From NCBI GenBank assembly GCA_016935175.1, contig JAFGRK010000006.1:30005-62004 (forward strand): a stretch of DNA of 32,000 bases, written 5' to 3'. Below are positions 4,992 through 25,738 of the stretch, piece by piece. Position 1 is the stretch's first letter, and every line of letters starts with the position of its first letter. The DNA is from Candidatus Woesearchaeota archaeon (GTDB taxonomy: Archaea > Nanobdellota > Nanobdellia > Woesearchaeales > SM23-78). The notes under the pieces are model-generated. The model was not told the DNA's origin. It did not search any database and saw only the letters and a program-made list of their open reading frames with translations. The position numbers were made by a program, and so were the translations under genes.

Positions 4992-5005
4992 AAACCCTTC
5001 CAAAC

Positions 5006-5666: not shown

Positions 5667-5693
5667 TTTATTCTCGATAGCTAATAAGGAACA

Positions 5694-5701: not shown

Positions 5702-5727
5702 TCATTATAGATTACCTTCTTATCACA

Positions 5728-11461: not shown

Positions 11462-11585
11462 GATAGTAATGTGTTAGGGAATGGTTTAAATGTTTTTTGC
11501 AGGCTTTCAGCCTGTCCGGCGCTTGAGGACCACTGAGTTATTAAAAGCAACACCTGCCTATCCCATGCACCCATTTTCCACAACC

Positions 11586-11595
11586 AATATAAATA
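11586..11595 (+). promoter_or_regulatory. TATA box for the 11616 gene
   Basis: aatataaata is centred 26 nt upstream of the ATG at 11616. Confidence 0.45.
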
Positions 11596-11615
11596 AGTGG
11601 CTGATTACTCTCATC

Positions 11616-12842
11616 ATGGGATTTTTCGACTTTCTAAGGAAAAAAGAGCCTGCTGTGGTGAATTTCTCTGAATTAGATGAATGGCTTGACAAGCAGCTCG
11701 AGGAGAAAAAGCTTGGCCAGAAGGTTGAGAAGGCCAAGAGCGTAGTAAGGTCCAAGGTCAAGGAAAGCTTTAATTACCTTGCTGAGCTGGAAAAAGCAGC
11801 CTTGCTCAATCCTAACATCCCAGACAGGGCTAAGCACATAATGGAAGGCCACAGGAAGTTCTATGTGCAAAGGCTCAAGCGCTTCCTTGACGAGATAGAA
11901 GTGCCTGATGACTACTCAGAGATAGGCCACTGTGCTGCCAGGTTCTCAGAGTCAATAACCAAGCTTAGCGAGGAGACGCAAAAGAATTACCTGGTGCTCA
12001 GGGAGTTCGTGGAAAAAGAATTGTCAAAGGTGATAAAGAGCATCAAGGCAATTGAAGACGAGCTGTCAGCCTTGCAAAGATCCATAGAGGCAGAAGGGTT
12101 AGAGCTGATAAGGGAGGCCAGGATCAGGCTCAAGCATTACAGGAATGATATTGACAAGAAGATAAGGCTTGAGAATGAGAAACAAAGGCACCATGATGAA
12201 TTAAGCTCATTGCACTCAAAAAAACAGAAATACCATGAGAAGATAAAAGAGCTAAAGGAGAGCAATGACTACGCAAGGTATAAGAGCTTGCTGGAAGAAA
12301 AAAACAAGCACGAGGAATCACTAAAGGAGCTGGAAAAGGATCTCAGCATCATCTTCGCAGAGCTCAACAGGCCCTTGAGGAAGTACAAGCACGGCTCACT
12401 GAACGAGGACTTAATAGACAAGTACTTGCTAGACCCATTGGGAGCCTTGGAATCAGACCACAGCTTAGTCATAAACGAAGTGCTCTCCAAGATGAGCCAA
12501 GGCTTGCACGAGCTAGAGCTGAAGGAACACCAGGTAGAGAAGGCTGTTGAGCTGATAAGCAAGCTGAGCAAGGAGTTCCTCACAGACAAGAGGATTGCGC
12601 TTTACGAGATAAAATCCCTTAACAAGGACGTGGCTACCAAGATTAACACCAGCGTAGCAGCGCTGAATATGTCAGAGTCAGAGACCCTGCTAAGGAACAT
12701 AGAGCAGAGAATAATCCAGGTGGAGCAGGCCATAGCAGCCATTGAGAAGGACATCAACGAAATAAGCCTTGACTATGCAAAGCAAAAGGTTAAGGAGAAG
12801 GTCAAGGAGATAATGTCAGACATAACCATTAATGACGAATAG
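11616..12842 (+). CDS. coiled-coil hypothetical protein (408 aa)
   Basis: The track ORF starts at 11490, but that N-terminal extension covers the TATA box. The ATG at 11616 (MGFFDFLRKKEP..) fits a leaderless start. The remainder is long K/E/L-rich heptad-like sequence. Confidence 0.7.
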   Translation: MGFFDFLRKKEPAVVNFSELDEWLDKQLEEKKLGQKVEKAKSVVRSKVKESFNYLAELEKAALLNPNIPDRAKHIMEGHRKFYVQRLKRFLDEIEVPDDYSEIGHCAARFSESITKLSEETQKNYLVLREFVEKELSKVIKSIKAIEDELSALQRSIEAEGLELIREARIRLKHYRNDIDKKIRLENEKQRHHDELSSLHSKKQKYHEKIKELKESNDYARYKSLLEEKNKHEESLKELEKDLSIIFAELNRPLRKYKHGSLNEDLIDKYLLDPLGALESDHSLVINEVLSKMSQGLHELELKEHQVEKAVELISKLSKEFLTDKRIALYEIKSLNKDVATKINTSVAALNMSESETLLRNIEQRIIQVEQAIAAIEKDINEISLDYAKQKVKEKVKEIMSDITINDE

Positions 12843-12873
12843 GGAAAAAAAGAATATAAAAAATAAAAAAATA

Positions 12874-14274
12874 TTATTTCTTGTTTGCCTCAGCAGGTTT
12901 CTCAGGGCTGGCTTCTGTCTTGCCACTATTCTTGCTTCCTTCCTGGCTGCCGTTGCCATTAGCATTGCCATTCCCATTGCCACTCACGTTTTTGCCTTTC
13001 CTGCTCCCACTGCCTTTCCTGTTGCCAACTACTTTGGTGCCTGTATTATTCTCATAGTTGTGCATCACTCGCAGGATGGTTGAGTCGCTAATCTTCATGC
13101 CACCAGCCCTCTGCTTAAGGTTCTCCTTTATCTGGGCATAGGACTTGCCTGACAGGTAGTCATTAATCACTTGCTCTGTAGCTCCGAGAGCTGTTGCGAC
13201 AAGGCCGTTGTACTTGCTCCTAACGTAGGCTGCTCCTGCACTTATGGCTGCTGCCATATTGGTTGCTATGTCCTTGAAGCTCCTCACCTGGTAGCCATTC
13301 TTTTTTGACTCCCTGATTATGTCCTTGGCCTTGTAGCCTTGGTTGTAAAGGTCAAGCACTTCCTTGCTAGCGCCTATATCATCATAGCTGGCAGCGTATT
13401 TATCCTTTAGCGAGCTGAGCTTTGACTCAAGGCTTGATGGCTTGGCCTTGGCTTCAATGAGAGCCTCGTCCTTACCATCCCTTTTAACTGCACCAGGAAC
13501 TACTCTTGCTACTTCTGTTACTTCTGCTTTTTTATGCTCATACTTGCTGGCGTAGCTCTGCAAAAGCCCTCCTGGCGCATACACATCAATGTCAGCGTCA
13601 ATGTCAGGGCTTAGCTGCTTGAGCTTTCTCTTGAATTCATCCACAATGCTGTCAAGGGTTAATTGCTTCTCAGCTGGCTTTGGCGCAGGCTTAGGCTGCG
13701 GCATCACTATCGGATTAGGCTTTGGCATTGCAGCAGGCTCTTCAATTGGCTTGTAAGCTGGCTGCGCTGGCAATTGAGTTGCAGGCTTAACAACAGGATT
13801 AACTGCTGGCTGAGCAGCTGGCCCAGTCATGGGCTTGTAAGTTGGCTTAGCAATAGGCTGCACAACTGGCTTCACCACTGGCCTTGGAGCCTGTGAAGGC
13901 TTATATCCTGCAGGCTGCACTACTGGCTGGCCAGGAACTGCATAACCTGAACTTCTGCCAGTGCTGCTCGCAGGGCTGAAGCCATACTTCCTGTTAAAGT
14001 CATCTTTCATCTCCCTGAATCCACCATATAATATCTGCTTCCATCCCCTAGCAATAGAGTTTGCTGCCTTGTCAACGTATCCTAAGGGCCTGCCTGAATC
14101 TATGTAGTCACCAATGTTCCTGAAAATGTTCTTGGTGTAGCTCACTCCCTTGTTGATATCATCGACAATCTCTTTGCCAGAGGCTACTGCTTCCTCAACC
14201 TTTTTCTCAAACTCATTGATTTTCGGCATCACCTTAGGTATCATCCTGTAAATCGCGTTTTCTATCATTCCCAT
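12874..14274 (-). CDS. hypothetical protein with a Pro-rich (KP/QP) linker, HTH-like C-terminal segments and an NG-repeat tail
   Basis: The track start is a TTG at 14313. AGGAGGAGG lies 6 nt before the ATG at 14274 (MGMIENAIYR..). The Pro-rich region spans 13666-13947. DYLSGKSYAQIKENLKQRAGGMKISDSTILRVM resembles a resolvase/sigma-type HTH. The C-terminus reads GNGNGNANGNGS. Confidence 0.7.
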   Translation of the reverse strand: MGMIENAIYRMIPKVMPKINEFEKKVEEAVASGKEIVDDINKGVSYTKNIFRNIGDYIDSGRPLGYVDKAANSIARGWKQILYGGFREMKDDFNRKYGFSPASSTGRSSGYAVPGQPVVQPAGYKPSQAPRPVVKPVVQPIAKPTYKPMTGPAAQPAVNPVVKPATQLPAQPAYKPIEEPAAMPKPNPIVMPQPKPAPKPAEKQLTLDSIVDEFKRKLKQLSPDIDADIDVYAPGGLLQSYASKYEHKKAEVTEVARVVPGAVKRDGKDEALIEAKAKPSSLESKLSSLKDKYAASYDDIGASKEVLDLYNQGYKAKDIIRESKKNGYQVRSFKDIATNMAAAISAGAAYVRSKYNGLVATALGATEQVINDYLSGKSYAQIKENLKQRAGGMKISDSTILRVMHNYENNTGTKVVGNRKGSGSRKGKNVSGNGNGNANGNGSQEGSKNSGKTEASPEKPAEANKK

Positions 14275-14287
14275 CTTAATCCTCCTC

Positions 14288-14797
14288 CTATTTGGTTGTA
14301 TAACTTTTGGCAAGGCTCTTGACTATTCCCTCGAGCCCTGCTGAAAACATCCTTGATGCGGCCTGAGCAATCATTCCTCTGCCATTATTCCTCATCTGCT
14401 TAAGCTGCTTGCCATTGACCAGCCTTATTCCCCTCTTCTGGGCGTATCTTATTGCCTTCCGGGTGTAACCTGTGTCTGTGACCATCAATCTTATCGCGCT
14501 CCTGCCGTTGTTGTTCTCAAGCTTATGGTAAAACTCAGCCACCTGCTTCACTCCGACATGCCTGTCCCTGAAGTGCGCCTTGCACTCTATGATGTAAAAC
14601 TGCTTGGTCTTAGGCTTGAACATCACCAGGTCATATTCCCTTTTCATTGCCTTGTCCTTGTCAAAGTCATAGTTCTTCATCCACTTGTTCTGATCAACCT
14701 TGACATAGCCGTTGCTTTCAAAAACGCCCCTTACATCGCGCTCAAAGCCATGGCCTAATTCGCCAGGAGTCATGTTCTTCTTGTTAGCATAGGTCAT
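14288..14797 (-). CDS. Mrr-cat / restriction-endonuclease-fold (PD-(D/E)xK) protein
   Basis: GHGFERDVRGVFESNGY..EYDLVMF..FYIIECKAH..VGVKQVAEFYHKL..RLMVTDTGYTRKAIRYAQKRGIRLVNGKQL follows the Mrr_cat (PF04471-type) order of motifs. Confidence 0.75.
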   Translation of the reverse strand: MTYANKKNMTPGELGHGFERDVRGVFESNGYVKVDQNKWMKNYDFDKDKAMKREYDLVMFKPKTKQFYIIECKAHFRDRHVGVKQVAEFYHKLENNNGRSAIRLMVTDTGYTRKAIRYAQKRGIRLVNGKQLKQMRNNGRGMIAQAASRMFSAGLEGIVKSLAKSYTTK

Positions 14798-14876
14798 TTA
14801 GTCACTTCATCTTTTTCATTTCAATCATAATAAAAATAAAAAAAACAAAAAAATAGTTTGTGCTTATGCATCTTTT

Positions 14877-15140
14877 TTACGCATCCTTTTTCTTGTAGCC
14901 GTCAAGGGCTTTCTTTATTGAGTCGAACAAGCCGTACTTGTCTGCCTGGTCATAGCCTGCGCCTATAACTGCGCCGCCTGCCATCCTTCGCATAAGCTGC
15001 TTCTTGCTCTCGTCCTGTGTCAAGAACTTCTTCTTGACCACATCGTAGACAAGCAAGCCGCCAACTGCAAGCTTGCCCAGGTCTATGACTCCTATCTTCT
15101 CTGCCTTTGCCATCTCAACTTTCTTTTCTAGCTCTGCCAT
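14877..15140 (-). CDS. small hypothetical protein with a Gly-zipper segment (87 aa)
   Basis: GGAGGT lies 7 nt before the ATG at 15140 (the track start 15155 contains the SD). AGGAVIGAG is a glycine-zipper-like stretch. Confidence 0.6.
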   Translation of the reverse strand: MAELEKKVEMAKAEKIGVIDLGKLAVGGLLVYDVVKKKFLTQDESKKQLMRRMAGGAVIGAGYDQADKYGLFDSIKKALDGYKKKDA

Positions 15141-15186
15141 GTTAGTTACCTCCATATGTTTTCATTGCTTTTTGCTTATCTGCTGA

Positions 15187-15591
15187 TTAGATTGGCTCAA
15201 AATCTCCAGGAGCCCCATCGCCATCCTCAGGGCTGTCGCTGCTTCCATCTCCGTTGCTACCTCCTCCTGGGCTAGCAGCCTGGGCTTGCCCGTTCTTGCG
15301 GTGCTTGCCATTCATTATCAGGTAAGTGCCTACAGCCCCGGCAATCGCCCCAAGGCCGATGTTCTGAACCCTCTCGTTCATGCTGTACTTGTTTCCGTTG
15401 TTGATCTCCTCGCCGATATAGTCTCCTGTCACAGCGCCAAGTATGCTTCCCTTGGCAAGGGTCTTGTACTTGGACTTCTCCTCCTTGCTAAGGTTAGTCT
15501 TCTTGCTAAGGTAGCCTTCAAGAGGCTTGTCAGCCACCCATACTGCTGCTGCGCCTATAACTGCGTGCTTCAATAATTTCTCTAATCCCAT
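15187..15591 (-). CDS. small Gly-zipper membrane-associated protein with an acidic G/S/D tail
   Basis: SD AAGGTGA precedes the ATG at 15591. The sequence contains VIGAAAVWVA, ILGAVTGDYIG and IGLGAIAGAVGTYLI, and the tail reads SPGGGSNGDGSSDSPEDGDGAPGD. Confidence 0.65.
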   Translation of the reverse strand: MGLEKLLKHAVIGAAAVWVADKPLEGYLSKKTNLSKEEKSKYKTLAKGSILGAVTGDYIGEEINNGNKYSMNERVQNIGLGAIAGAVGTYLIMNGKHRKNGQAQAASPGGGSNGDGSSDSPEDGDGAPGDFEPI

Positions 15592-15630
15592 TCTTGCATC
15601 ACCTTTTGCCCTTGTTGTTTTTCCTTAATG

Positions 15631-16164
15631 CTATTTTTTCTTGAAAACACTGTTAATCAAAGCATAAATGCCCAGTATCATGGCTTCGTGCATTATCACG
15701 TCAATCCCGCTGACAGGCTCATGCACTAATTTGCCGCTAGCTTTCCTAGCTATCTGGTAACTCGCATCAAGGGGATTGGCCACCATGCCGTCCCTGACAT
15801 TTTGCAGCACTTCCCCTGCTATGTATTCCAAAGGGTTAGAGCTGTTCTTCATTGGGTTGCCGCTGCCAGGAACTGCTGCATTAGGATTCTTCTTGGTCTT
15901 CCTGCTGCCCGTAGGAGCGCTGACCAGCTCATCAAGGTCATCATCTGCCCCTGCTGTGACTTTCTCTGGCAATGGAGACTTGTAATCCTGCGCGCTGCTC
16001 TTCTTAGGGTCATATCCATCAATGATGTTCTTCTTCACTCCCTCAATGACCTTGTCAACGAGCCCATCTGAGCCTGAGCCCTTGCCATCAGCCAGCTCTT
16101 TTGCTTCTTGCTTTCCTTCATAATCCTTTTTTGAATCCACAAAGTACTTTTTTGCCTGTGACAT
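15631..16164 (-). CDS. hypothetical protein (177 aa) with a C-terminal hydrophobic segment
   Basis: SD AGGAG lies upstream of the ATG at 16164. The N-terminal two-thirds look disordered and K/D/G/S-rich. The C-terminus IDVIMHEAMILGIYALINSVFKKK looks tail-anchor-like. Confidence 0.6.
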   Translation of the reverse strand: MSQAKKYFVDSKKDYEGKQEAKELADGKGSGSDGLVDKVIEGVKKNIIDGYDPKKSSAQDYKSPLPEKVTAGADDDLDELVSAPTGSRKTKKNPNAAVPGSGNPMKNSSNPLEYIAGEVLQNVRDGMVANPLDASYQIARKASGKLVHEPVSGIDVIMHEAMILGIYALINSVFKKK

Positions 16165-16212
16165 TTTTCATCAACTCCTAGCATGCTTCCCCAAGCTTTT
16201 CATCACTCCTCT

Positions 16213-18003
16213 TCACATCACTCCGTTCCTGCCCATGTCCCCGACCACAATGCCGGGTATGTCTGTTTCATCTTTTATTGTGTATAGCTGGATTTTCTTG
16301 TGCCTGAACCTGCCTGTATCCCCTGAAAACCCTCCAAAGCAGAACCCTGATGCTATCTCAAGCACAGTTATCCTGTTAGTGTTCTTCTTGCTGACAAGCC
16401 CTCTCATGACTTCGTCATAATTGTAAATATAACCGTCTGATATGAGCATTATGTCAACTGAGTTCTTGTTCCTGGAAAGCACTTCGTGCATCTTCTCTGT
16501 CTCAAGCCTTGTGCCCCCTTCCTGGTAATGCAGTATGTTCTTGGAAACCTTGCGAGGGTCATCAAGAAAATTGCTAGCCTTGGTCTCGCTGCTGAAATTA
16601 ACCACAGCCACCTTGCTGCCTTTTCTCAGGTATTGCCTGGCAGCGCACACTCCTCCAAGGGCTGCGTATGAAAGCTCTTCTGCAGGGTCTGCCATGCTGC
16701 ATGACGAGTCAATCATTACCAGCAGGTCAGGAGTTCCCTTGGTTTTCTTCTCTCCCCGGCTGCCTTCTTCATTCCATGACTTGGAAATCTCAGGCAAGTA
16801 CTTGCCATAGCTGTTGAAAACATCAACCCTGGCAACAGGCTCATCAATCTCCCAGGGCTTTAGCTGCGTGCTCGCATTCTCCCCTCCTCCAATCACATCC
16901 CTGTCCTCGACCAGTATCTCATAGCTCTCTGCCTTGGCATTGTAAAAGTCAATTAGCGCATCCTTAGGGTCCCTTCCAGGGGCTCTGCTCCTGCCTGAGC
17001 CTGCGATTGGCAGCCCTTTCCTTGTTGCGCCAGGCTTGCCAACATCACTAAGCCCATCATCTTTAGCGCCTGTTTCTTGCCCTTTCAGCCTCTCCTGCTC
17101 TTGTCTCACAAAATCATGTAGCTTCTTGTAGTTATCAGGCTTCTCAAGCTCTTTTGCAATATCCTTTAATGCCCTTTCAACTTCTTTCTCGTCATAAGCC
17201 CCTAGGCCAAATCCATCAACCTTGGAAAGAGAGTAGCCTCCTGATTTGCCAGAGCTGCTTTTACCCTTGTTGCCTTCCTGCTTTTCCTGCTCATCAAGCT
17301 CTGCAAGTATCCTCGCAAACCTCTCAGCGTTCTGGTAAGCCCTTTTCCTGCTGGTGAATTTTATCTTTCCCAGCTCATCAACCTTCTGCCTCAAGCCCTT
17401 GCCTATTGTCGGCACATCAAAGTCCATGCCTGTCTTAAAGGCGTACAAGTGGCTGAGCACTGCCTCAGTATTTGAGCTCTTGTCAAGCTTCTGGTAAATC
17501 CTCCTTATCGAATCCTCTCTCTTGTCAAGCATGAGCTCCAAATTCAGGCACACGTCCATGAAATAGTTGGAAAGCTCATCCTTTTTCTCAGGGCAGGCTT
17601 TCTCAATCCTGTAAGTCAGCATTATCATGTTCTTCAAGTCCCAGGGCATTATCTTGTAATGGCCTGCCTCGTGCAATAGCAGCCCCCTGAATATGGTCTG
17701 GTAGTCAAGCCCCTTGCCCCTTAAGTGGTCAACAAATTTTTTCTGTATGCTTATCTCGTGGCTTTTCATGCTGATGCAAGCAGTCTCAACCTCATCTGAC
17801 TCAACAAGCTTAGGGAATTGCAGCTCAAAGCAGTAAAGCCTTTTCTGCACATAATCCCAGGCTTTCTCCAGCTCATCATCTATTGAAAGAGGCGAAGCTA
17901 TAGCAGCCTGCTGCTTAGCATCAGCAGCATTAACTGCAGCTTTCTTGCCTGCTTCTTGCCCTTTTTTTCTTGGCAATCCCAATAAATCCTCTAAAAACGA
18001 CAT
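16213..18003 (-). CDS. putative metallopeptidase (HExxH, DUF2201_N-like) + C-terminal vWA domain protein
   Basis: SD GGAGG lies 8 nt before the ATG at 18003. LLLHEAGHYKIMPW is encoded at 17659-17673. The vWA MIDAS motif LLVMIDSSCSMADP (DxSxS at 16696-16710) is followed by a VAVVNFSS..GGT..IMLISDG beta-strand pattern. Confidence 0.85.
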   Translation of the reverse strand: MSFLEDLLGLPRKKGQEAGKKAAVNAADAKQQAAIASPLSIDDELEKAWDYVQKRLYCFELQFPKLVESDEVETACISMKSHEISIQKKFVDHLRGKGLDYQTIFRGLLLHEAGHYKIMPWDLKNMIMLTYRIEKACPEKKDELSNYFMDVCLNLELMLDKREDSIRRIYQKLDKSSNTEAVLSHLYAFKTGMDFDVPTIGKGLRQKVDELGKIKFTSRKRAYQNAERFARILAELDEQEKQEGNKGKSSSGKSGGYSLSKVDGFGLGAYDEKEVERALKDIAKELEKPDNYKKLHDFVRQEQERLKGQETGAKDDGLSDVGKPGATRKGLPIAGSGRSRAPGRDPKDALIDFYNAKAESYEILVEDRDVIGGGENASTQLKPWEIDEPVARVDVFNSYGKYLPEISKSWNEEGSRGEKKTKGTPDLLVMIDSSCSMADPAEELSYAALGGVCAARQYLRKGSKVAVVNFSSETKASNFLDDPRKVSKNILHYQEGGTRLETEKMHEVLSRNKNSVDIMLISDGYIYNYDEVMRGLVSKKNTNRITVLEIASGFCFGGFSGDTGRFRHKKIQLYTIKDETDIPGIVVGDMGRNGVM

Positions 18004-18023
18004 TCCTTTTTCCTCCGGTTATA

Positions 18024-18221
18024 TTGAAAAAGTCGCCGCAACCGGCACAAGCCTTTAACGAAAGCCTTGAGGGAAAAGAGCTACACTCGCATTGCGATGC
18101 TCGGTAGCAAGCGTGGAATGGGACTTCCGAAGGAATGTCCCATACTAACTCTTTTGCAAGCTTTTGTTATGAAAAGCTTCGGGGGTTGGCCCCGTCGGGG
18201 TGGCTTAGGCGACTTTTTCGA
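18024..18221. ncRNA. candidate structured RNA element of unknown class in the AAA+/vWA spacer
   Basis: A perfect 12-bp closing stem pairs 18026-18037 (gaaaaagtcgcc) with 18208-18219 (ggcgactttttc). A 7-bp stem pairs 18074-18080 with 18149-18155. An 11-bp bulged hairpin spans 18118-18143, an 8-bp hairpin spans 18158-18179, and a G4/C4 hairpin spans 18181-18200. There is no credible ORF, and the strand is undetermined. Confidence 0.45.
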
Positions 18222-18245
18222 CAGTTATTTTTTCCTTCATATCTC

Positions 18246-19655
18246 CTAATCAATTTTCAAATAATCATAAAACACAGGATGGTCAACTTCTTTGGCCAGC
18301 TTTTGCGCCTCTGCAAGCTTGGCCTTGGCAACTGAGGGGCTGGATTTCTCGTTCATGGCATAAGCTTCCATCAGGCTGAACATGCTCGCTTGAGCATCCT
18401 TTTGCTTGGACCATCTCTGCATCATGTCTGCCACTGACTTCTTGGTGACGTACATCTGCAAAGGGTCTGACTCTTTCCTTCGCTCCTTCTTGAACCCTTC
18501 AATGTAGTTCTGGGTGAACCTCATCTTGTGGTTGAGCACAAAGGGCAATATGGCAGCCACGTGCTGCACACTAACTTCTTTTTCCCCAAGCAGCCAGGCA
18601 AGGCTTTGCATGTACTTGTTCTCTGCAAACGTATTCCTTACGGACTCACAATTAGTTTTCTTGCCGCACATCAATTCCTTGTAATGGCATCCCTCAACGC
18701 ATCCCTCATTGCTTCGCTTCTGCCCGAACATCATGCACGAGTATAATTCTGAAACTACAAAGTCAAGTAATAAGTCTGCCTCGTCGCTGATCCTGATTTT
18801 TCTTATCTCGTCATAAGCCTGGTTGAGCTCATCCCTTGTGAGCAATTCAAGCCCAGTCCTCTTCTCCAAAACTTTCTTGAAATCCTCTTGCACAGCAATC
18901 ATCTCTTTCCTCTTATCAGTGTAAGGCTTGTCGCTCTTCATGATGGCGTAGAGCTTGTCCTCAGACTCCTTGTGGTTGAGCATCCTTGCCCCGTGAGAGC
19001 TCCTCACATGCTGGTGGCGTATTATCCTTATAGGATTAACTCCTGGAAACTTGCTCTCATCACTCACATCGCACCTGTCAATCAATGCCTCGACAATCCT
19101 GTTGTTGCCTGAGTCCTTGTAGTTGATAGTGTTGAATATAGGCACTTCCCCCAGGTTGATAAGCTCGTTAAGGTATTGGAACTCTCCCTTGTCCATGCCC
19201 CACAAGAGCAGGTTTTGCTTTGACTCAGGTATCCTGTTGAGCTCATCAACGATCTTGGGCTCTAGCAGCACAAAATTAGACCAGATGGGCTTCTCATTTC
19301 CTTGGTTAAGCTGCCCAAGGTCTAGCCTTGCAGTCATCTTCTCTTGAGTTAATTCTGCGTGGCCTTTGAGGCTGCAGCTTGACATCACAGTCTTTGGGAT
19401 GCCATATGTCATGCTGAGCAATACTTCTGCAGAGGTGGTCTTTCCAAGGCCGTACTCTCCCATGCATAGCTGCTTTCCTCGGTTAACGCTTGTAAGCAAC
19501 CCTAGCAATAGGTTTGAGTTGAACCTGCTAGTCCCTACTTGCATATTAGAGTGGCAAAGGTAAAGGTTGTCCTTCACATAGCCGTACACTCTCAGCAATT
19601 TTTCCTGCTTTGATTTTGCTCCAGGATTGCTGCTCAACTGTTTCTGCTCGCTCAT
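18246..19655 (-). CDS. MoxR-like AAA+ ATPase with a Cys-cluster insertion in the lid region
   Basis: Walker A is GEYGLGKTT and Walker B is KIVDELNR, with ..SKQNLLLWGMDKGEFQ.. and FNTINYKDSGNNRIVEALIDRCDV matching the MoxR NP/DRF region. The lid carries VSVQHVAAILPFVLNHKM. C-X11-C-X3-C-X6-C-X5-C is encoded at 18648-18737. The ATG overlaps the upstream stop (ATGA). Confidence 0.8.
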   Translation of the reverse strand: MSEQKQLSSNPGAKSKQEKLLRVYGYVKDNLYLCHSNMQVGTSRFNSNLLLGLLTSVNRGKQLCMGEYGLGKTTSAEVLLSMTYGIPKTVMSSCSLKGHAELTQEKMTARLDLGQLNQGNEKPIWSNFVLLEPKIVDELNRIPESKQNLLLWGMDKGEFQYLNELINLGEVPIFNTINYKDSGNNRIVEALIDRCDVSDESKFPGVNPIRIIRHQHVRSSHGARMLNHKESEDKLYAIMKSDKPYTDKRKEMIAVQEDFKKVLEKRTGLELLTRDELNQAYDEIRKIRISDEADLLLDFVVSELYSCMMFGQKRSNEGCVEGCHYKELMCGKKTNCESVRNTFAENKYMQSLAWLLGEKEVSVQHVAAILPFVLNHKMRFTQNYIEGFKKERRKESDPLQMYVTKKSVADMMQRWSKQKDAQASMFSLMEAYAMNEKSSPSVAKAKLAEAQKLAKEVDHPVFYDYLKID

Positions 19656-21010
19656 TTGATCTCACCTTTAGCCTCAGCAACTTTCTTATCATCACCTTTA
19701 GCCCCAGCAGCCTTCTTATCATCGCCTTTAGCCTCAGCTTTATTCTCGCTTTTCTCCTCAGTTACAAACACTTTCTTGTCATTGTTATACTTCTCAAATG
19801 AGCTGTTAGCAGGCTTTTGCACTGTTTGAACTAGTTGCTCTGCCTGGTTGGCATTACTGGCATAAACATCGCTCGCATTGCTCGCCATCAACGGGCCTGC
19901 CTTTATCCTTGTAGGCACATAATCATTGTTCTCCACGATCGCAAAGAGAGTTCCTTTTTTCAGGTAGCCTTTTGCAACATATTCATCCACGAGCGAGTTA
20001 AGGAACCTCACGCAGCCATGGCTTGCAGCGCTTCCTAACTTTTCAGGCTCATTAGTGCCATGGGCCAGGATGTCTGATATCTCGTCAGGCTTGTAGTTGC
20101 CTTTAGAATCCCATCTTCCTGCATTTAGCCTTGCAGCTTTTGGGCCGTAAGCCAGCTCTCCGCCATATCTCCAATTGCTGCTGTCCTGAACAGACTGCAC
20201 CTCAAATATTCCGTTGGGTGTCTTATGGTCACCCGCCCTCTCCTTGTCTCCTGGGTTCATGCCTGTGCTAACATCAGCCTCATCAACCAGCTGGTATGCG
20301 AGCTTGTACACCTTTGCCCTTTGGGTTTCCTTATCCACAACAAAGACATACTCTGGCTTGCCTTTCTTTTCCTTACCAAGCATCATATCGAGGACTTTGG
20401 GGGTTTCGCTTGAATAAGCACGAGAGCTGTCTTTGCTTATGCTTGGCGCATTTACATCCACAACAGCTACATCCACAACATCATCAATTGTTCCTGGCTT
20501 TTCCACCTGAAGCCTTTCTGCCTGAGGTGATTTTTCTGCTCTAAAGGCCCCATTATCTGGCTGCAAAAATCCAGGCATGGCTGCGATTGCTTGCCAGGCT
20601 AGCCTGTTAGCATAAGGGCTTTGCACCAATTCATCCTCTGCTATCATAACCTGCTGCTTTGGATGCTCCTTGGCAGATCGCATAGCCTTGGCAAAAAGCC
20701 CATCATACATCTTGCCTGCGTTGAGCACTGAGAAAAACGTGCCAGCAGCTATCAAGCCTGCTCCTATTAAGCTGTATGCTCGCGCACCATGCTTCTTTTT
20801 ACTGGCAATATCAGGAACTAGCTCTTTTTTCTCTTGCAAGCCACTGGTTGGTTGCTGATCGCTCTTTGGCTGCTCATTCATTGGCTGTTGCCAGCTCCTT
20901 GGCTGTTGCTCACTAGCTGGATACCCAGCATTTCCTGCAATAGCTTCTGCTGCAGTAGCCTCTGATGGCTTTGCCCCGTAATCATTTATTCTTCCATCTA
21001 GCTCAGTCAT
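19652..21010 (-). CDS. membrane-anchored YkuD (L,D-transpeptidase-fold) domain protein with an intact catalytic motif
   Basis: The track start is a TTG at 21025. AAGGTGA lies 5 nt before the ATG at 21010. There is a single TM segment, AYSLIGAGLIAAGTFFSVL. The YkuD pattern reads VVDKETQRAKVYK..STGMNPGDK..GDHKTPNGIF..ILAHGTNEPEKLGSAASHGCVRFLNSLVDE (domain ~19928-20353). Confidence 0.8.
   Translation of the reverse strand: MTELDGRINDYGAKPSEATAAEAIAGNAGYPASEQQPRSWQQPMNEQPKSDQQPTSGLQEKKELVPDIASKKKHGARAYSLIGAGLIAAGTFFSVLNAGKMYDGLFAKAMRSAKEHPKQQVMIAEDELVQSPYANRLAWQAIAAMPGFLQPDNGAFRAEKSPQAERLQVEKPGTIDDVVDVAVVDVNAPSISKDSSRAYSSETPKVLDMMLGKEKKGKPEYVFVVDKETQRAKVYKLAYQLVDEADVSTGMNPGDKERAGDHKTPNGIFEVQSVQDSSNWRYGGELAYGPKAARLNAGRWDSKGNYKPDEISDILAHGTNEPEKLGSAASHGCVRFLNSLVDEYVAKGYLKKGTLFAIVENNDYVPTRIKAGPLMASNASDVYASNANQAEQLVQTVQKPANSSFEKYNNDKKVFVTEEKSENKAEAKGDDKKAAGAKGDDKKVAEAKGEIK
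19661..19738 (-). repeat. 30-nt in-frame tandem repeat (~2.6 copies) encoding KGDDKK(A/V)A(G/E)A
   Basis: ctcacctttagcctcagcaactttcttatc / atcacctttagccccagcagccttcttatc / atcgcctttagcctcagc. Confidence 0.85.
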
Positions 21011-21066
21011 TATATCACCTTTCAATAATCCCCTGTCGCTACTCTAACGCTAACTAACAGCTCTTT

Positions 21067-22311
21067 TTACCTGCTGAATCTCAGGCTTAGTGGCCTTAAT
21101 GAGTGCTCTATCACAAAAGCTGCATTGCTATAGTTTCCCCTGACTGTTGAGTCAAGGTCATTAAGGTCATGGTTAAGCATTATCACTCCGCCATTGGTGC
21201 TGTTCCTGCTTTCCCTTATGGCTTTTATCCTGTCAGGATAGTCTGCTCCGCAAAGCACTATTCCCTTGAAGTTGGTGGACAATCCAACAATGCCATCTCC
21301 GTACAATCCTGTGTGGACTGGGGAAAAGTTCCTGTACTCAGCAAGGAATACTCCTTCAGGAGTGGCTTTGTCTCCTGATTGCATCTTTTTATTAGGGTTG
21401 GTGCCTGTTGAGCAAGCGTATTGCTTGACAAATCCTAGCTTGCCATTGCTGCTCTTGTAAAGGCTCAGCTTGTTCTCATCCTTGTCAACGTATATAATAT
21501 AGGAGAAGTGGCTTGCGAACTTGCCCTCATACTTTGAAAGCGCTCCGGGCATTTTTTGTCCAGAAGCCTTTAAGACTTGCCCAGATTGATAGCTTGCCAC
21601 AGCTCTTTCTTCAAGGGCAGGTGATCTGCTTTGCAAAGAGGGCTGGGCTGCTGTAGTTGCCTGCGCTGGTGCGCTTGATGGGTCGTATGCATTGGCCTGC
21701 CTCATCTCATCTACCTTTCTCATGCCCTCCCTGACTTGCTGCTCAAGCTTTGAGATGTAATCATCCTTTTCACTCAGCCGAGCATCTTTCTCGCTAAGGG
21801 TGCTTGACAATCCATTGCTCTTCTCCTGCAATAGCTTGTTGTCCAGCTCTAGCTTCTTGGCTTTCTCAGCCTCTGCCTTTAATTCTTCCTGGGTCTTCTG
21901 GTAGTTAGCCTCTACTGCTGTCTTAGACTCTTCAAGCGTCAGGGCTTTTTGCTCCAGGCTGCTTATTTTTTCTTGCCCAGTCTTCCATTCAGCCACTGTC
22001 GGATTTATCTTTTCATTGTAGAACTCCCCTATCTTGGCATTCACGCTTCCGCAATGGGTTGCCCAGTAAACAGTCCCTCCCATCAAGAGGATTTGGATAC
22101 CGCGCTTCAGCTTGCCTTTTTCCGGCCATACAAATCTCTTGAATGCTCTTGCAGCCACGTATCCTGCTGTTGCAAGTGCTGCTCCGCCTATCAGGGCTTT
22201 TGCTCCCTTAGAAAACTTTGTCTTTGCGTTGATTGCTGCATATTGAGTCCCTGTTGCTTGAGCTTGCCCTTCTTGCGCTTGCTCAGTTCCAGTTGGTTCA
22301 GTATCGCTCAT
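21067..22311 (-). CDS. membrane-anchored coiled-coil protein with a degenerate (catalytically inactive-looking) YkuD-like domain
   Basis: The track start is a TTG at 22329. GGAGGGG lies 6 nt before the ATG at 22311. Two hydrophobic segments are followed by a long coiled coil. The C-terminus aligns to the neighbouring YkuD protein (VDKDENKLSLYK..STGTNPNKK..GDKATPEGVF), but His is replaced (IVLCGA) and SHGC is replaced by TNGG. Confidence 0.7.
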   Translation of the reverse strand: MSDTEPTGTEQAQEGQAQATGTQYAAINAKTKFSKGAKALIGGAALATAGYVAARAFKRFVWPEKGKLKRGIQILLMGGTVYWATHCGSVNAKIGEFYNEKINPTVAEWKTGQEKISSLEQKALTLEESKTAVEANYQKTQEELKAEAEKAKKLELDNKLLQEKSNGLSSTLSEKDARLSEKDDYISKLEQQVREGMRKVDEMRQANAYDPSSAPAQATTAAQPSLQSRSPALEERAVASYQSGQVLKASGQKMPGALSKYEGKFASHFSYIIYVDKDENKLSLYKSSNGKLGFVKQYACSTGTNPNKKMQSGDKATPEGVFLAEYRNFSPVHTGLYGDGIVGLSTNFKGIVLCGADYPDRIKAIRESRNSTNGGVIMLNHDLNDLDSTVRGNYSNAAFVIEHSLRPLSLRFSR

Positions 22312-25249: not shown

Positions 25250-25738
25250 ATGCATCCAGAAGATGACGAGCCGCAGGACGAGCTAGGCGGAGTTTATGAC
25301 GACGAAGGAAGGGAAGACCTCATAAAAGACGATGAGATAAGCCCTGAGGAAGAGGCCTTCATGCAAGGCTATGAGACAGAGGAGGAAAGGAAAGAAGAAA
25401 CCTCAGATGTCTATGAGGAAGCCTTTGACAAGGCCAACGCTGCAGCATTGCCCAAGAGAAAGGCAGCTAAGAAGAATGCTAAGGCTGCAAAAGCAGCCAC
25501 AAAAAAGGCAGGAAAAAAGGCAAAGCCAAAAAAGAAGCAAGCAAAGAAACCAGTAAAAAAGGCAAAGCCAAAAAAGAAATTAGGAAAAAAAGCAGCAAAA
25601 AAATCAAAGCCAAAAAAGAAGCAAGCAAAGAAACCAGTAAAAAAGGCAAAGCCTGCAAAGAAAATAGCAAAAAAAGCCCCTAAGAAAGCAGCAGAAAAAA
25701 CAAAGGCAAAGCCAAAAAAGAAGGGCAAGAAAAGATAA
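25250..25738 (+). CDS. bipartite acidic / Lys-Ala-Pro-rich (histone-H1-tail-like) protein
   Basis: The N-terminal ~60 aa are D/E-rich (MHPEDDEPQDELGGVYDDEGREDLIKDDE..). The C-terminal ~100 aa are KKAxKPKKKQAKKPVKKAKP-type repeats. Confidence 0.7.
   Translation: MHPEDDEPQDELGGVYDDEGREDLIKDDEISPEEEAFMQGYETEEERKEETSDVYEEAFDKANAAALPKRKAAKKNAKAAKAATKKAGKKAKPKKKQAKKPVKKAKPKKKLGKKAAKKSKPKKKQAKKPVKKAKPAKKIAKKAPKKAAEKTKAKPKKKGKKR
25521..25653 (+). repeat. perfect 49-nt direct repeat, 84-nt period, in frame
   Basis: caaagccaaaaaagaagcaagcaaagaaaccagtaaaaaaggcaaagcc occurs at 25521-25569 and again at 25605-25653. Confidence 0.85.

What the first reader, a model, noticed from the sequence alone, without database searches (positions are those of the whole stretch)
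12874..22311. Nine-gene minus-strand cluster: YkuD pair + MoxR AAA+ + HExxH-vWA + Gly-zipper proteins + Mrr-cat nuclease + Pro-rich/HTH protein
All nine ORFs are co-oriented.

- **Spacing:** most gaps are 13-60 nt; the gap between the 14877 and 14288 genes is ~79 nt and contains a T-run. One junction overlaps as ATGA (19652-19655). Most ATGs have a GGAGG/GGTGA SD in front, which points to one or two operons.
- **Content:** membrane-anchored, outward-facing YkuD-fold enzymes are combined with a cytoplasmic MoxR-vWA chaperone-like pair. The vWA subunit also carries a metallopeptidase motif. A PD-(D/E)xK nuclease-fold protein and several small proteins with no recognisable family complete the set.
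- **Context:** MoxR-vWA pairs are known both as maturation chaperones and as the core of NTP-dependent conflict systems. I do not recognise this particular assembly as a described system, and it sits in an archaeal context.

Whether it is a cell-envelope or host-interaction machine, a defence system or an integrated element is open.
Basis: partly seen in the sequence, partly recalled or inferred. Interest (0 to 1): 0.85.

Follow-up and report, generated by a model that had tools for sequence, protein, structure and literature searches.

The report
Conserved Woesearchaeota AAA+/vWA cell-wall-enzyme gene cluster
A tightly packed nine-gene cluster in a tiny symbiotic-type archaeon (Woesearchaeota) is kept in the same order in at least eight related lineages; it combines an ATP-driven remodelling pair with outward-facing enzymes that act on bacterial cell wall, small membrane proteins, a nuclease and a probable DNA-binding protein, matches no described system, and may be used to interact with bacteria.

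Summary
The nine minus-strand genes are real and carry the claimed domains, and they are not a chance juxtaposition. The same genes in the same order occur in at least 8 distinct Woesearchaeota loci (AAA+ identity 47-87%). They are often packed with overlapping stop/start codons, and they sit in a syntenic housekeeping context.

**Core.** The core is an active MoxR/chelatase-class AAA+ ATPase with a conserved Cys/His cluster. Its partner has an N-terminal zincin-like HExxH domain (AlphaFold/Foldseek: minigluzincin-like) and a C-terminal vWA domain with a complete MIDAS. This pair is a broad, uncharacterised family found in Thermodesulfobacteriota, Latescibacterota, Binatia, methanogens and DPANN. 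It is linked in 44 of 51 loci.

**Accessory genes.** These are specific to the Woesearchaeota.
- One slot holds a wall-binding protein (degenerate YkuD or LysM).
- One slot holds a wall-modifying enzyme (active YkuD or CE4 deacetylase).
- There are two paralogous Gly-zipper proteins and a small disordered protein.
- There is an intact Mrr-type nuclease and a Pro-rich protein with HTH-like units.

**Known systems.** I found no match to PADLOC, PHROGs, phages, plasmids or viral contigs. None of the third components of the described MoxR-vWA conflict systems is present.

The g3-g4 gap is 242 nt and folds as a structured RNA. The first 'YkuD' lacks the catalytic His and Cys.

**Most likely function.** A chromosomal host-interface or envelope module. 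A defence role remains a live rival.

The parts
21067..22311 (-). g1: membrane protein with two hydrophobic segments around a basic loop, a coiled-coil stalk of about 100 aa, and a C-terminal degenerate YkuD-like domain (catalytic His->Cys, Cys->Gly). This is the wall-binding slot.
   Evidence: Pfam YkuD E 4.6e-4, below cut-off, plus coiled-coil hits. The alignment shows 'VLCGA...TNGGVIM' where g2 has 'HGT...SHGCVR'. Orthologous-slot proteins in L004, L063 and L058 keep the N-terminal half but carry LysM instead.
19652..21010 (-). g2: bitopic membrane protein. It has a cytoplasmic tail of about 84 aa, one TM segment and an outward-facing catalytically intact YkuD (L,D-transpeptidase fold) domain. 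This is the wall-modifying slot. Its stop codon overlaps the g3 start (ATGA).
   Evidence: Pfam YkuD E 3.4e-13. TM at 85-101. The HGT...SHGC[VI]R motif is conserved in the g2-slot proteins of the window, L002 and L061, and L062 has SEGCVR. The slot is replaced by TM + Polysacc_deac_1 proteins in L004 and L063.
18246..19655 (-). g3: cytoplasmic MoxR/Mg-chelatase-class AAA+ ATPase with a Cys/His cluster (C307-x11-C319-x3-C323-H324-x5-C330-x5-C336) in the lid region.
   Evidence: AAA_5 and AAA_lid_2. The family profile hits MoxR 2r44 (1.3e-4) and the BchI/ChlI lid. Walker A, Walker B, N178 and R194 are invariant, and the Cys cluster is present in 50 of 54 family members.
18004..18245 (-). 242-nt structured intergenic spacer between g3 and g4. 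It ends in a GC hairpin plus a T5 run and a TATA-like/SD region. It may act as an internal terminator/promoter or be a small inserted RNA element.
   Evidence: MFE -78 kcal/mol, z -3.43, 0 of 200 shuffles fold as well. No Rfam match. The g3-g4 gap is only 22-38 nt in L002 and L004. Among the 65 loci, the sequence was found only in L001, which is the same sample.
16213..18003 (-). g4: cytoplasmic two-domain partner of g3. It has an N-terminal zincin-like helical domain with HEAGH (H111, E112, H115, D122), a disordered linker, and a C-terminal vWA domain with a full MIDAS (D432xS434xS436, T498, D523).
   Evidence: Alignments A2 and A3. AF2 model pLDDT 73, with both domains above 85. Foldseek vs PDB hits vWA and MIDAS domains. 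N-domain model pLDDT 91; its best hits are the minigluzincins jannalysin, abylysin and selecase, TTHA0227 and Spartan. It also hits the N-terminal part of phage CobT-like/vWA proteins.
15631..16164 (-). g5: small protein that is mostly predicted disordered. It has a conserved N-terminal MSxAKKYF motif and a C-terminal helical/amphipathic region. It always follows g4 in the clade.
   Evidence: No hit in Pfam, NCBIfam, PADLOC or PHROGs. Orthologs are in every clade-A locus that covers this position. Alignment. No similarity to the bacterial GXGXG third component (hhalign).
15187..15591 (-). g6: small Gly-zipper-type membrane protein with an acidic D/G/S-rich C-terminal tail.
   Evidence: Hydrophobic GxxxG-rich segments. 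Orthologs carry faint Gly-zipper_YMGG and Rick_17kDa_Anti hits. Present in every clade-A locus that covers this position.
14877..15140 (-). g7: a shorter paralog of g6 (Gly-zipper-type). The likely start is the second ATG.
   Evidence: The g6 profile hits the g7-slot proteins of L010, L062, L061, L063 and L056. Alignment. The SD GGAGGT lies before the second ATG.
14288..14797 (-). g8: Mrr-type PD-(D/E)xK nuclease with an intact E...D...ExK motif and a C-terminal amphipathic helix. It is preceded by a 79-nt AT-rich gap containing T-runs that could serve as a terminator and/or a TATA box.
   Evidence: Mrr_cat E 6e-13. The motif 'GHGFE...YDLV...IIECKAH' is conserved in the clade-A orthologs. An Mrr_cat gene is also linked upstream of g3 in clade B (L006), with a remnant in L009.
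12874..14274 (-). g9: has an N-terminal helical region, a long Pro-rich spacer, two conserved HTH-like units at the C-terminus and a basic tail. It is followed by a long T-rich run that probably acts as the terminator.
   Evidence: PT repeat, with weak Recombinase, HTH_7, Tc3 and Sigma70_r4 hits at the conserved units. The Recombinase hit occurs in 3 of 5 orthologs. Alignment. T-run at about 12840-12873.

Best explanation
This is a chromosomally fixed, vertically inherited operon-like module of one Woesearchaeota clade. It is built around a widespread but uncharacterised two-protein remodelling unit.

Shown:
- g3 is a catalytically competent MoxR/chelatase-class AAA+ ATPase.
- g4 is its obligate genomic partner, with a zincin-like HExxH domain and a MIDAS-bearing vWA domain.
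- Both lack TM segments and are therefore taken to be cytoplasmic.
- g1 and g2 are membrane-anchored. On topology prediction, their ectodomains face outward and bind (g1: degenerate YkuD, or LysM in relatives) and modify (g2: active YkuD, or CE4 deacetylase in relatives) peptidoglycan-type polymers.
- g6 and g7 are small Gly-zipper membrane proteins.
- g8 keeps the residues of an active Mrr-type nuclease.

Inferred:
- As in other MoxR-vWA pairs, the vWA MIDAS captures an acidic peptide of a client. Candidates are the cytoplasmic tails of g1 and g2, the acidic tail of g6, or g5.
- The AAA+ ring then remodels the client. In the archaeal versions the zincin-like domain may also clip it.
- This assembles, activates or gates the membrane and ecto components.
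- Woesearchaeota are not known to make murein, so the outward-facing enzymes most likely act on the wall of a bacterial partner or prey, for attachment or remodelling.
- g8, with the DNA-binding-like g9, handles DNA at that interface. Whether this is scavenging or attack is unknown.
For: Linkage:
- The same nine-gene order occurs in the window, L002/L003, L004/L005, L062/L010, L061, L063/L055, L056 (partial) and the contig carrying P0009.
- g2 and g3 overlap by 4-23 nt in four lineages. L063 packs all the genes with gaps of about 70 nt or less.
- g3 and g4 are linked in 44 of 51 loci across bacteria and archaea.

Enzyme competence.

Folds.

Slot swapping keeps the cell-wall theme. YkuD-like is exchanged for LysM, and YkuD for Polysacc_deac_1, with the membrane topology preserved.

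Vertical inheritance:
- The flanks are syntenic (RtcB, ThrRS, an Lrp-like gene, M50, PCMT).
- g3 diverges at about the rate of housekeeping genes.

Literature:
- Woesearchaeota and Pacearchaeota carry extracellular murein-targeting enzymes, interpreted as contact with or predation on bacteria (PMC8204110, PMC9723730).
- Peptidoglycan hydrolase homologs are prominent in Nanoarchaeota (PMC12352652).
- MoxR-vWA pairs are described as a chaperone/co-chaperone unit that captures a peptide and releases it remodelled (PMC7159879).
Against: - There is no experimental or expression data. Client identity and any proteolysis are pure inference.
- The catalytic Glu of HExxH is lost in most bacterial homologs, so peptidase activity is not a family-wide requirement.
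- Clade-B Woesearchaeota (L006, L009) and L065 have the AAA+/vWA pair, with or without Mrr, but no cell-wall enzymes. The core function is therefore not wall-specific.
- I could not check whether these MAGs make a murein-like wall of their own.
- A nuclease plus an HTH-like protein is not an obvious part of an envelope machine.
- The 242-nt spacer and the 79-nt gap may split the cluster into up to three transcripts in this genome.
Confidence: 0.4

Rival explanations
1. It is an NTP-dependent conflict (antiviral or abortive-infection) system. The MoxR-vWA-zincin unit would be the threshold switch. It would release or activate the effectors: the Mrr-type nuclease g8 to cut DNA, and the Gly-zipper proteins g6/g7 to permeabilise the membrane. 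g9 would act as DNA sensor or regulator, and the wall-associating proteins as envelope-proximal sensors.
For: - The combination of a MoxR-vWA pair, a peptidase domain, a REase-fold effector and TM proteins is the grammar described for MoxR-vWA conflict systems. A subset of the iSTAND type carries peptidoglycan-associating domains behind TM segments (PMC7159879).
- The Mrr_cat gene stays linked to the pair even when its position changes: upstream in L006, downstream in clade A.
- g8 resembles the nuclease modules of ZorD and CARF-PDDEXK effectors.
- In L064 a SNF2-methyltransferase gene lies next to a related pair.
Against: - g3-g7 and g9 have no PADLOC hit.
- No VMAP, iSTAND, FtsH or beta-propeller third component is present.
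- The vWA domain is C-terminal with no variable effector tail.
- The locus is syntenic and vertically inherited among housekeeping genes rather than patchy or island-like.
- The bacterial relatives also sit in conserved housekeeping neighbourhoods.
- Wall-specific domains have no obvious self-target in an archaeon without murein.
Confidence: 0.25
2. It is a module for maturing the organism's own envelope. These Woesearchaeota would build or decorate a glycan/peptide wall layer of their own. The cluster would then be a wall-maturation operon (cross-linking, deacetylation, anchoring) chaperoned from the cytoplasm by the AAA+/vWA pair. g8 and g9 would be unrelated passengers.
For: - In bacteria, YkuD, CE4 deacetylase and LysM are the classic wall-maturation set.
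- Conserved synteny and a housekeeping-like rate of evolution fit a core cellular function.
- The same window encodes large surface proteins (Laminin_G_3, DUF4382/DUF5667, a MopE-like motif).
Against: - No mur genes are in the window.
- Murein synthesis is not known in this lineage. The literature treats murein-directed enzymes of Woesearchaeota as directed at bacteria (PMC8204110, PMC9723730).
- Linkage of g8 to the pair is conserved in two arrangements, so g8 is not a passenger.
Confidence: 0.15
3. It is a juxtaposition of two or three independent units that merely share a strand in a compact genome: g1-g3, g4-g7 and g8-g9.
For: - A 242-nt structured spacer with a hairpin and T5 run lies before g4. 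A 79-nt AT/T-rich gap lies before g8.
- DPANN genomes are gene-dense, with long co-directional runs.
Against: - Order and content are conserved over lineages in which g9, g2 and g5 have diverged to 26-52% identity.
- In relatives the g3-g4 gap is 7-81 nt, and the g7-g8 and g8-g9 gaps are very short.
- g3-g4 linkage is near-universal, which contradicts a g3|g4 split.
Confidence: 0.1
4. It is an integrated mobile element, provirus or plasmid-derived island.
For: - Several products are ORFans.
- The g4 N-domain resembles the N-terminal part of phage CobT-like/vWA proteins at the fold level.
Against: - No integrase was detected among the ORFs scanned, and no tRNA gene or flanking repeats were found.
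- G+C is like the flanks.
- PHROGs gave only single sub-significant or generic matches (g3 to a clamp-loader AAA+ family at 1.5e-5).
- Viral contigs, phage records and plasmid records gave no hits.
- The chromosomal position is identical in relatives.
Confidence: 0.03

Closest known systems
MoxR-class AAA+ / vWA partner dyads (RavA-ViaA, NorQ-NorD, CbbQ-CbbO, CoxD-CoxE, CobS-CobT, BchI-BchD)
   Same: - An AAA+ of the MoxR/chelatase class is encoded next to a protein with a C-terminal MIDAS-bearing vWA domain.
- The g3 profile hits MoxR 2r44 and the ChlI/BchI lid.
- The g4 N-domain fold resembles the N-terminal part of phage CobT-like/vWA proteins.
- The expected mechanism is the same: MIDAS-mediated capture of a client, then ATP-driven remodelling.
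   Different: - No known client is nearby (CobN, NorB, RuBisCO, CODH or LdcI).
- g3 carries a conserved Cys/His cluster.
- g4 has a zincin-like HExxH domain.
- The Pfam and NCBIfam models of those families do not reach their thresholds.
MoxR-vWA-centric ternary conflict systems (VMAP, iSTAND, FtsH and beta-propeller types; Kaur et al. 2020, PMC7159879)
   Same: - A MoxR-vWA core is combined with a peptidase domain, a REase-fold nuclease and TM proteins.
- Some iSTAND systems include TM-anchored peptidoglycan-associating domains.
   Different: - None of the four defining third components is detected.
- The vWA domain is C-terminal with no variable effector tail.
- Those systems are concentrated in multicellular bacteria and are mobile. 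This cluster is vertically inherited in DPANN archaea.
Pfam DUF2201_N + DUF2201 ('putative metallopeptidase' + 'VWA-like') proteins encoded next to MoxR ATPases. This comparison rests on my own recollection of the Pfam entries.
   Same: The same architectural idea: an HExxH domain followed by a vWA-like domain, partnered with an AAA+.
   Different: Only 1 of 21 family members gives a sub-threshold DUF2201 hit (E 0.032), and none hits DUF2201_N. At the sequence level this is a separate family. DUF2201 is itself uncharacterised in the searched literature.
Minigluzincins (jannalysin, abylysin, selecase) and SprT/Spartan-type minimal zincins
   Same: These are the best structural matches of the g4 N-domain. 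They share a three-stranded sheet, a backing helix and an HExxH active-site helix.
   Different: - The matches are weak (E 0.09-0.5, TM about 0.5 on the small target).
- g4 adds about 130 aa of extra helices.
- The third metal ligand is not identified.
- The Glu is lost in most bacterial homologs.
Extracellular murein-directed enzymes of Woesearchaeota/Pacearchaeota (giant lytic transglycosylase proteins; PMC8204110, PMC9723730) and archaeal peptidoglycan hydrolases (PMC12352652)
   Same: Outward-facing bacterial-type cell-wall enzymes in archaea that lack murein. They are interpreted as tools for attachment to, or attack on, bacteria.
   Different: - The enzyme classes differ: L,D-transpeptidase fold, CE4 deacetylase and LysM, not GH23 lytic transglycosylases.
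- Here they are embedded in an operon with a cytoplasmic AAA+/vWA unit and a nuclease. Those papers do not mention this.

Membership tests
MoxR/Mg-chelatase-class AAA+ ATPase (g3) | Walker A GxxGxGK[ST], Walker B hhhhDE followed by N-R, sensor-1 Asn and Arg finger | tested here: met
   G66-E-x-G-x-G-K72-T73, D137-E138-x-N140-R141, N178 and R194 are invariant or nearly so in 54 family members.
MoxR/Mg-chelatase-class AAA+ ATPase (g3) | Significant match to the family models (AAA_5, AAA_lid_2, MoxR structures) | tested here: inconclusive
   - AAA_5 scores 18.1 bits against a cut-off of 22.
- AAA_lid_2 scores 22.6 bits against a cut-off of 22.7.
- The profile against PDB hits MoxR 2r44 at E 1.3e-4 and BchI at 3.2e-4.
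The protein is related but divergent.
vWA domain with MIDAS (g4 C-terminus) | DxSxS...T...D metal-ion-dependent adhesion site on a Rossmann-like vWA fold | tested here: met
   - D432, S434, S436, T498 and D523 are invariant across 21 diverse members.
- VWA_2 is hit by 17 of 21 members.
- Foldseek hits integrin I, CMG2, MDN1-MIDAS and ArnB domains with probability 1.0.
Zincin metallopeptidase (g4 N-terminus) | HExxH on an active-site helix behind a small beta-sheet | tested here: met
   - H111, E112 and H115 are invariant in 15 archaeal members.
- The model has strands 65-67, 75-77 and 84-87, with helix 101-117 carrying HEAGH.
- The best PDB matches are minigluzincins, TTHA0227 and Spartan.
Zincin metallopeptidase (g4 N-terminus) | Third metal ligand and family-wide conservation of the catalytic Glu, which would imply real peptidase activity | tested here: inconclusive
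   - The Glu is replaced by Gly or Ala in most of the bacterial members aligned, while both His residues stay invariant.
- D122 is invariant in the archaeal set and is a candidate third ligand, but this is unproven.
- Catalysis cannot be tested here.
MoxR-vWA ternary conflict systems (PMC7159879) | A third conserved component: VMAP, inactive STAND, FtsH-type double AAA+, or a beta-propeller fused to the vWA domain | tested here: not met
   None of the nine products hits such families in Pfam, NCBIfam or PADLOC. g4 has no propeller.
MoxR-vWA ternary conflict systems (PMC7159879) | Variable effector domains C-terminal to the vWA domain; mobile, patchy distribution | tested here: not met
   The vWA domain ends the protein. 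The locus is syntenic across lineages.
YkuD L,D-transpeptidase (g2) | Pfam YkuD above threshold, with catalytic His and the SxGC[IV]R cysteine motif | tested here: met
   50.8 bits against a cut-off of 23.4. 'AHGT...SHGCVRF' is conserved in orthologs.
YkuD L,D-transpeptidase (g1) | Catalytic His and Cys | tested here: not met
   21.2 bits against a cut-off of 23.4. The motif positions read 'LCGA...TNGGVIM', and the same losses occur in the g1-slot orthologs. g1 has the YkuD fold but is probably not an enzyme.
Mrr-type PD-(D/E)xK nuclease (g8) | Pfam Mrr_cat above threshold, with the E...D...(D/E)xK catalytic residues | tested here: met
   49.3 bits against a cut-off of 21. GHGFE, YDLV and ECK are conserved in the clade-A orthologs.
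Known anti-phage defence systems (PADLOC-DB v2) | Component proteins match the models of a named system | tested here: not met
   The only hits are generic nuclease-domain matches for g8 and coiled-coil noise for g1. g2-g7 and g9 have none.
Integrated virus, plasmid or mobile island | Integrase or recombinase, tRNA target, flanking repeats, viral or plasmid homologs, atypical composition | tested here: not met
   - No tRNA genes.
- No integrase among the flanking ORFs scanned.
- No flanking repeats.
- G+C is 0.44-0.50 against 0.43-0.48 in the flanks.
- No convincing viral family match in PHROGs, and no hits in viral contigs, phage records or plasmid records.
Cofactor-insertion dyads (CobS/CobT, NorQ/NorD, CbbQ/CbbO, CoxD/CoxE) | A neighbouring client enzyme (CobN, NorB, RuBisCO, CODH), and family models above threshold | tested here: not met
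   No such gene is in the window or in the related loci inspected. The only hits are weak: Cob-chelatase subunit at E 0.006, and CobT in 1 of 21 members.
Helix-turn-helix DNA-binding protein (g9) | Significant match to an HTH family | tested here: inconclusive
   Only sub-threshold hits: Recombinase at 0.015 in 3 of 5 orthologs, plus HTH_7, HTH_Tnp_Tc3_2, Sigma70_r4 and KorB. They fall on the two conserved C-terminal units. The PDB profile search was uninformative.

The most novel reading that the evidence does not exclude
The cluster encodes a previously unrecognised trans-envelope 'grappling and feeding' device of DPANN archaea. A cytoplasmic AAA+/vWA/zincin switch would deploy membrane-anchored proteins that latch onto, and chemically remodel, the peptidoglycan of a bacterial host or prey (L,D-transpeptidation or deacetylation). 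Gly-zipper proteins, an Mrr-type nuclease and a DNA-binding protein would then process host DNA for a symbiont that cannot make its own nucleotides. If true, it would be direct genetic evidence that some Woesearchaeota live on bacteria rather than on archaea.
Probability: 0.15. Interest if true: 0.85.

Novelty: new variant of a known kind. Interest (0 to 1): 0.62.

Why it matters
How DPANN archaea with minimal genomes attach to and exploit partner cells is a long-standing open question, and so is whether some of them use bacteria rather than archaea as hosts. This cluster gives a concrete, conserved set of nine genes to test.
- It contains an active L,D-transpeptidase-fold ectoenzyme, swapped for a CE4 deacetylase in sister lineages.
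- It contains a wall-binding partner, swapped for LysM in sister lineages.
- Both are translationally coupled to a cytoplasmic AAA+/vWA unit and linked to a nuclease.

Independently, the work defines a broad and so far unnamed family. It consists of a Cys-cluster MoxR-like AAA+ ATPase paired with a zincin-like/vWA protein. The vWA partner gives about 240-500 clusters at 50% identity among 1.84 billion representatives. In bacteria and euryarchaea the pair has a GXGXG-type third subunit. Its function is unknown in any organism.

Tried and rejected
- **Known defence system.** PADLOC gave nothing for the core.
- **Virus or plasmid origin.** PHROGs, two viral-contig scans and four tblastn searches of phage and plasmid records gave no convincing match.
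- **Is g5 the counterpart of the bacterial GXGXG third subunit (or of the third genes of L006, L035 or L038)?** hhalign gave probabilities below 1%, so I rejected this.
- **Sequence searches of PDB.** Single g3 and g4 sequences found nothing. Profiles gave only generic MoxR/ChlI and vWA hits. Profiles of g9 and g5 were uninformative.
- **Protein database searches with g4.** The second and third word-indexed searches returned only 11-12 close relatives even with a diverse profile. The AlphaFold alignments were therefore shallow. The exhaustive representative search gave the family size but no context.
- **Bacterial flanking genes** (YicC, guanylate kinase, HD, methyltransferase, PilZ, FKBP and others). 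These look like lineage-specific synteny and gave no functional clue.
- **Rfam search of the 242-nt spacer.** No match.
- **The conserved 'KGEIK' C-terminus of g2 as a Braun-lipoprotein-like lysine anchor.** I set this aside because those codons are the Shine-Dalgarno region of g3.
- **Literature.** Searches for DUF2201 and for MoxR/vWA in DPANN found no description of this cluster.

Full report
**1. Observation**

The window comes from a Candidatus Woesearchaeota MAG. NCBI names g3 as hypothetical protein JXB28_01205 on an 83-kb contig. The flanks encode archaeal housekeeping proteins: ThrRS with the archaeal editing domain, RtcB, GAPDH, PCMT, an M50 protease and an Lrp/AsnC regulator.

All nine minus-strand ORFs exist. 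I chose starts using SD-like GGAGG/GGTGA boxes and the starts called in relatives. The resulting gene boundaries are:

| Gene | Coordinates |
|---|---|
| g1 | 21067-22311 |
| g2 | 19652-21010 |
| g3 | 18246-19655 |
| g4 | 16213-18003 |
| g5 | 15631-16164 |
| g6 | 15187-15591 |
| g7 | 14877-15140 |
| g8 | 14288-14797 |
| g9 | 12874-14274 |

The gaps are 56, -4 (the ATGA overlap), 242, 48, 39, 31, 79 and 13 nt. A long T-run follows g9.

- It folds into a stable structure (MFE -78 kcal/mol, z = -3.4, 0 of 200 shuffles as good).
- It has no Rfam match.
- It ends in a hairpin plus T5.
- It is absent from relatives, where the g3-g4 gap is 22-38 nt.

**2. What the proteins are**

- **g2** is a bitopic membrane protein with one TM segment at 85-101. 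It has a YkuD domain well above threshold (E 3.4e-13) and an intact HGT...SHGCVR catalytic motif.
- **g1** matches YkuD only below threshold. The catalytic His and Cys are replaced ('LCGA...TNGGVIM'), and the g1-slot orthologs show the same losses. Its N-terminal half has two hydrophobic segments around a basic loop and a coiled coil of about 100 residues.
- **g3** has every AAA+ catalytic motif. A family profile hits the MoxR structure 2r44 and the lid of BchI/ChlI. It also carries a C-x11-C-x3-CH-x5-C-x5-C cluster in 50 of 54 family members, bacterial ones included.
- **g4** has an invariant HExxH (H111, E112, H115), D122 and an NYFxDV motif among archaeal homologs. It also has a complete MIDAS: D432xS434xS436, T498 and D523.
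  - The AlphaFold model is confident in both domains.
  - The C-terminal domain matches vWA/MIDAS structures.
  - The N-domain modelled alone (pLDDT 91) best matches the minigluzincins jannalysin, abylysin and selecase, TTHA0227 and Spartan. Probabilities are 0.9-1.0 but E-values are weak.
  - In the viral library, the N-domain matches the N-terminal part of phage CobT-like/vWA proteins.
  - No Pfam family covers this N-domain.
- **g5** has no family. It is largely disordered, with a conserved MSxAKKYF N-terminus.
- **g6 and g7** are paralogous Gly-zipper-type small membrane proteins.
- **g8** is an Mrr_cat nuclease (E 6e-13) with the E...D...ExK residues conserved.
- **g9** has a Pro-rich spacer and two conserved C-terminal units. 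These give only sub-threshold HTH-type hits.

**3. Is the assembly conserved?**

Yes.
- Neighbourhoods of g3 homologs at 47-87% identity show the same genes in the same order. The loci are L002/L003, L004/L005, L062/L010, L061, L063/L055, L056 (partial) and the contig of P0009.
- The genes are often packed with overlaps. g2 and g3 overlap in four lineages.
- The loci sit in a shared chromosomal context: RtcB, ThrRS and an Lrp-like gene on one side, and a coiled-coil gene, M50 and PCMT on the other.
- The two upstream slots vary in an informative way.
  - The g1 slot keeps its membrane and coiled-coil half, but ends either in a degenerate YkuD or in LysM.
  - The g2 slot is either an active YkuD or a TM-anchored Polysacc_deac_1 (CE4) enzyme.
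  - The theme of 'bind and modify a peptidoglycan-type polymer outside the cell' is preserved while the domains are exchanged.
- g3 evolves about as slowly as the flanking housekeeping genes. g2, g5 and g9 evolve fast.

**4. The wider family**

- The g3-g4 pair is far more widespread than the cluster. A scan of species-representative genomes found it in Thermodesulfobacteriota, Binatia, Latescibacterota, Entotheonella, Nitrospirota, Methanocellales, Methanosarcinales, Archaeoglobaceae, Pacearchaeota and other Woesearchaeota.
- g4 homologs are present next to g3 in 44 of 51 loci. The others are mostly truncated contigs.
- Bacterial g4 aligns over its full length at 27% identity.
- In most bacteria and euryarchaea, a protein of about 235 aa with a weak GXGXG match sits between the two genes. 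It is unrelated to g5.
- Both His residues of the motif are invariant family-wide. The Glu is Gly or Ala in most bacterial members. Metal binding may therefore be ancestral, with peptidase activity perhaps a feature of the archaeal versions.
- Other DPANN variants exist.
  - L065 has a minimal AAA-vWA-106 aa form.
  - L064 has response regulator-AAA-221 aa-vWA followed by four tandem 155-aa paralogs.
  - Clade B (L006, L009) has an Mrr_cat gene upstream of the pair and two unrelated small genes after it.
- The nuclease is thus linked to the pair in two different arrangements. The wall enzymes, Gly-zipper proteins, g5 and g9 are specific to clade A.
- An exhaustive profile search gave 239, 495 and 884 representative clusters for g4 at E <= 1e-30, 1e-10 and 1e-3 among 1.84 billion.

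**5. Known systems**

- PADLOC gave nothing for g2-g7 or g9. For g8 it gave only generic nuclease-domain matches, and for g1 only coiled-coil noise.
- PHROGs gave nothing meaningful.
- No viral contig, phage record or plasmid record contains relatives of g3 or g4.
- The described MoxR-vWA conflict systems require a VMAP, iSTAND, FtsH or beta-propeller component and have effectors C-terminal to the vWA domain (PMC7159879). None of this is present.
- Cofactor-insertion dyads (CobS/T, NorQ/D, CbbQ/O, CoxD/E) share the logic, but no client gene is nearby and their models do not reach threshold.
- The locus has no tRNA gene, no flanking repeats and no atypical composition, and no integrase was detected among the ORFs scanned. 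An integrated element is excluded for practical purposes.
- Papers on murein-directed enzymes in Woesearchaeota and Pacearchaeota (PMC8204110, PMC9723730, PMC11537232) and on archaeal peptidoglycan hydrolases (PMC12352652) do not mention this cluster.

**6. Mechanism**

- *Shown.* There is an ATPase-competent AAA+, an obligately linked zincin-like/vWA-MIDAS protein, one active and one degenerate wall-directed ectoprotein with cytoplasmic tails, two small membrane proteins and an intact nuclease. All are inherited as a unit.
- *Inferred from what is known of MoxR-vWA pairs* (PMC7159879). The MIDAS captures an acidic peptide of a co-encoded client. The AAA+ ring remodels it. The zincin-like domain may clip it. 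This assembles or gates the membrane and ecto components.
- *Inferred from lineage biology.* The ectodomains act on bacterial peptidoglycan, that is, at a host or prey interface.
- The roles of g8 and g9 are the weakest part of the model.

I put about 0.4 on this host-interface/envelope reading. I put 0.25 on a defence or abortive-infection system, 0.15 on a module for maturing the organism's own wall, 0.1 on independent neighbouring units, and about 0.03 on a mobile element.

**7. Verdict**

The cluster is a new variant of a known kind: a MoxR-class AAA+/vWA system. It has an unusual partner architecture and a set of accessory genes specific to DPANN archaea. It is worth follow-up because it offers testable candidate genes for interaction between Woesearchaeota and bacteria, and because it defines an unnamed, widely distributed AAA+/zincin-vWA family.

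Noticed in passing
window 18004-18245 (minus strand): A 242-nt intergenic insert between g3 and g4. It folds far better than shuffled controls (z -3.4), has no Rfam match, and is absent from all related loci except the same-sample contig L001. It could be a small mobile or structured RNA element, or an internal terminator/promoter.
   Followed up: partly
window 18246-19655 (g3), residues 307-336; all g3 homologs in L002-L065: A C-x11-C-x3-C-H-x5-C-x5-C cluster in the AAA+ lid region, conserved in 50 of 54 family members from bacteria and archaea. It suggests a Zn or Fe-S site. As far as I recall, this is not a feature of characterised MoxR proteins.
   Followed up: partly
L007, L011-L054 (e.g. 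L030:11314-12129): Bacterial and euryarchaeal versions of the pair carry a third gene of about 235 aa between the AAA+ and vWA genes. It has a weak GXGXG (glutamate-synthase/FwdC-type beta-helix) match. The three-gene unit sits in conserved housekeeping neighbourhoods and appears to be uncharacterised.
   Followed up: partly
L064:4509-6380: In another Woesearchaeota lineage the AAA+/vWA pair is preceded by a response-regulator gene and followed by four tandem paralogous genes of about 155 aa. An SNF2-helicase/methyltransferase fusion lies next door on the other strand.
   Followed up: no
L009:9504-9659 versus L006:9385-9918: The Mrr_cat gene upstream of the pair in clade B is intact in L006. 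In L009 it is reduced to a 51-codon remnant, which indicates recent loss of the nuclease in one lineage.
   Followed up: no
window 25250-25738 (plus strand): An ORF made largely of 42-nt tandem repeats (25459-25710) that encode a Lys/Ala/Pro-rich basic protein. It looks like a histone-H1-like or nucleoid-associated protein.
   Followed up: no
window 25865-27790 versus L004:2636-4564, L061:5183-7093 and L062:3478-5391: At the same syntenic position, the window and L002 encode a ThrRS with the archaea-specific editing domain (tRNA-Thr_ED). Sister lineages encode a tRNA_SAD-type ThrRS that is only about 30% identical. The synthetase type was replaced in situ.
   Followed up: no
window 956-7266 (plus strand): A run of large probable surface proteins lies upstream of the cluster region: 831 aa with a MopE-like metal-binding motif, 482 aa with a Laminin_G_3 lectin domain, and 512 aa with DUF5667 and DUF4382.
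   Followed up: no
window 11490-12842 (plus strand): A 450-aa coiled-coil protein with no family match is encoded convergently right after g9. Its homologs (about 407 aa, 56-84% identical) occupy the same position in L002, L004 and L062, and a 409-aa gene occupies it in the P0009 contig. It might belong functionally to the cluster.
   Followed up: partly
window 19662-19751 (g2 C-terminus): Three 30-nt tandem repeats encode KGDDKK(A/V)A-type units at the C-terminal tail of g2, just before the g3 start. The last codons (KGEIK) double as the Shine-Dalgarno region of g3.
   Followed up: no
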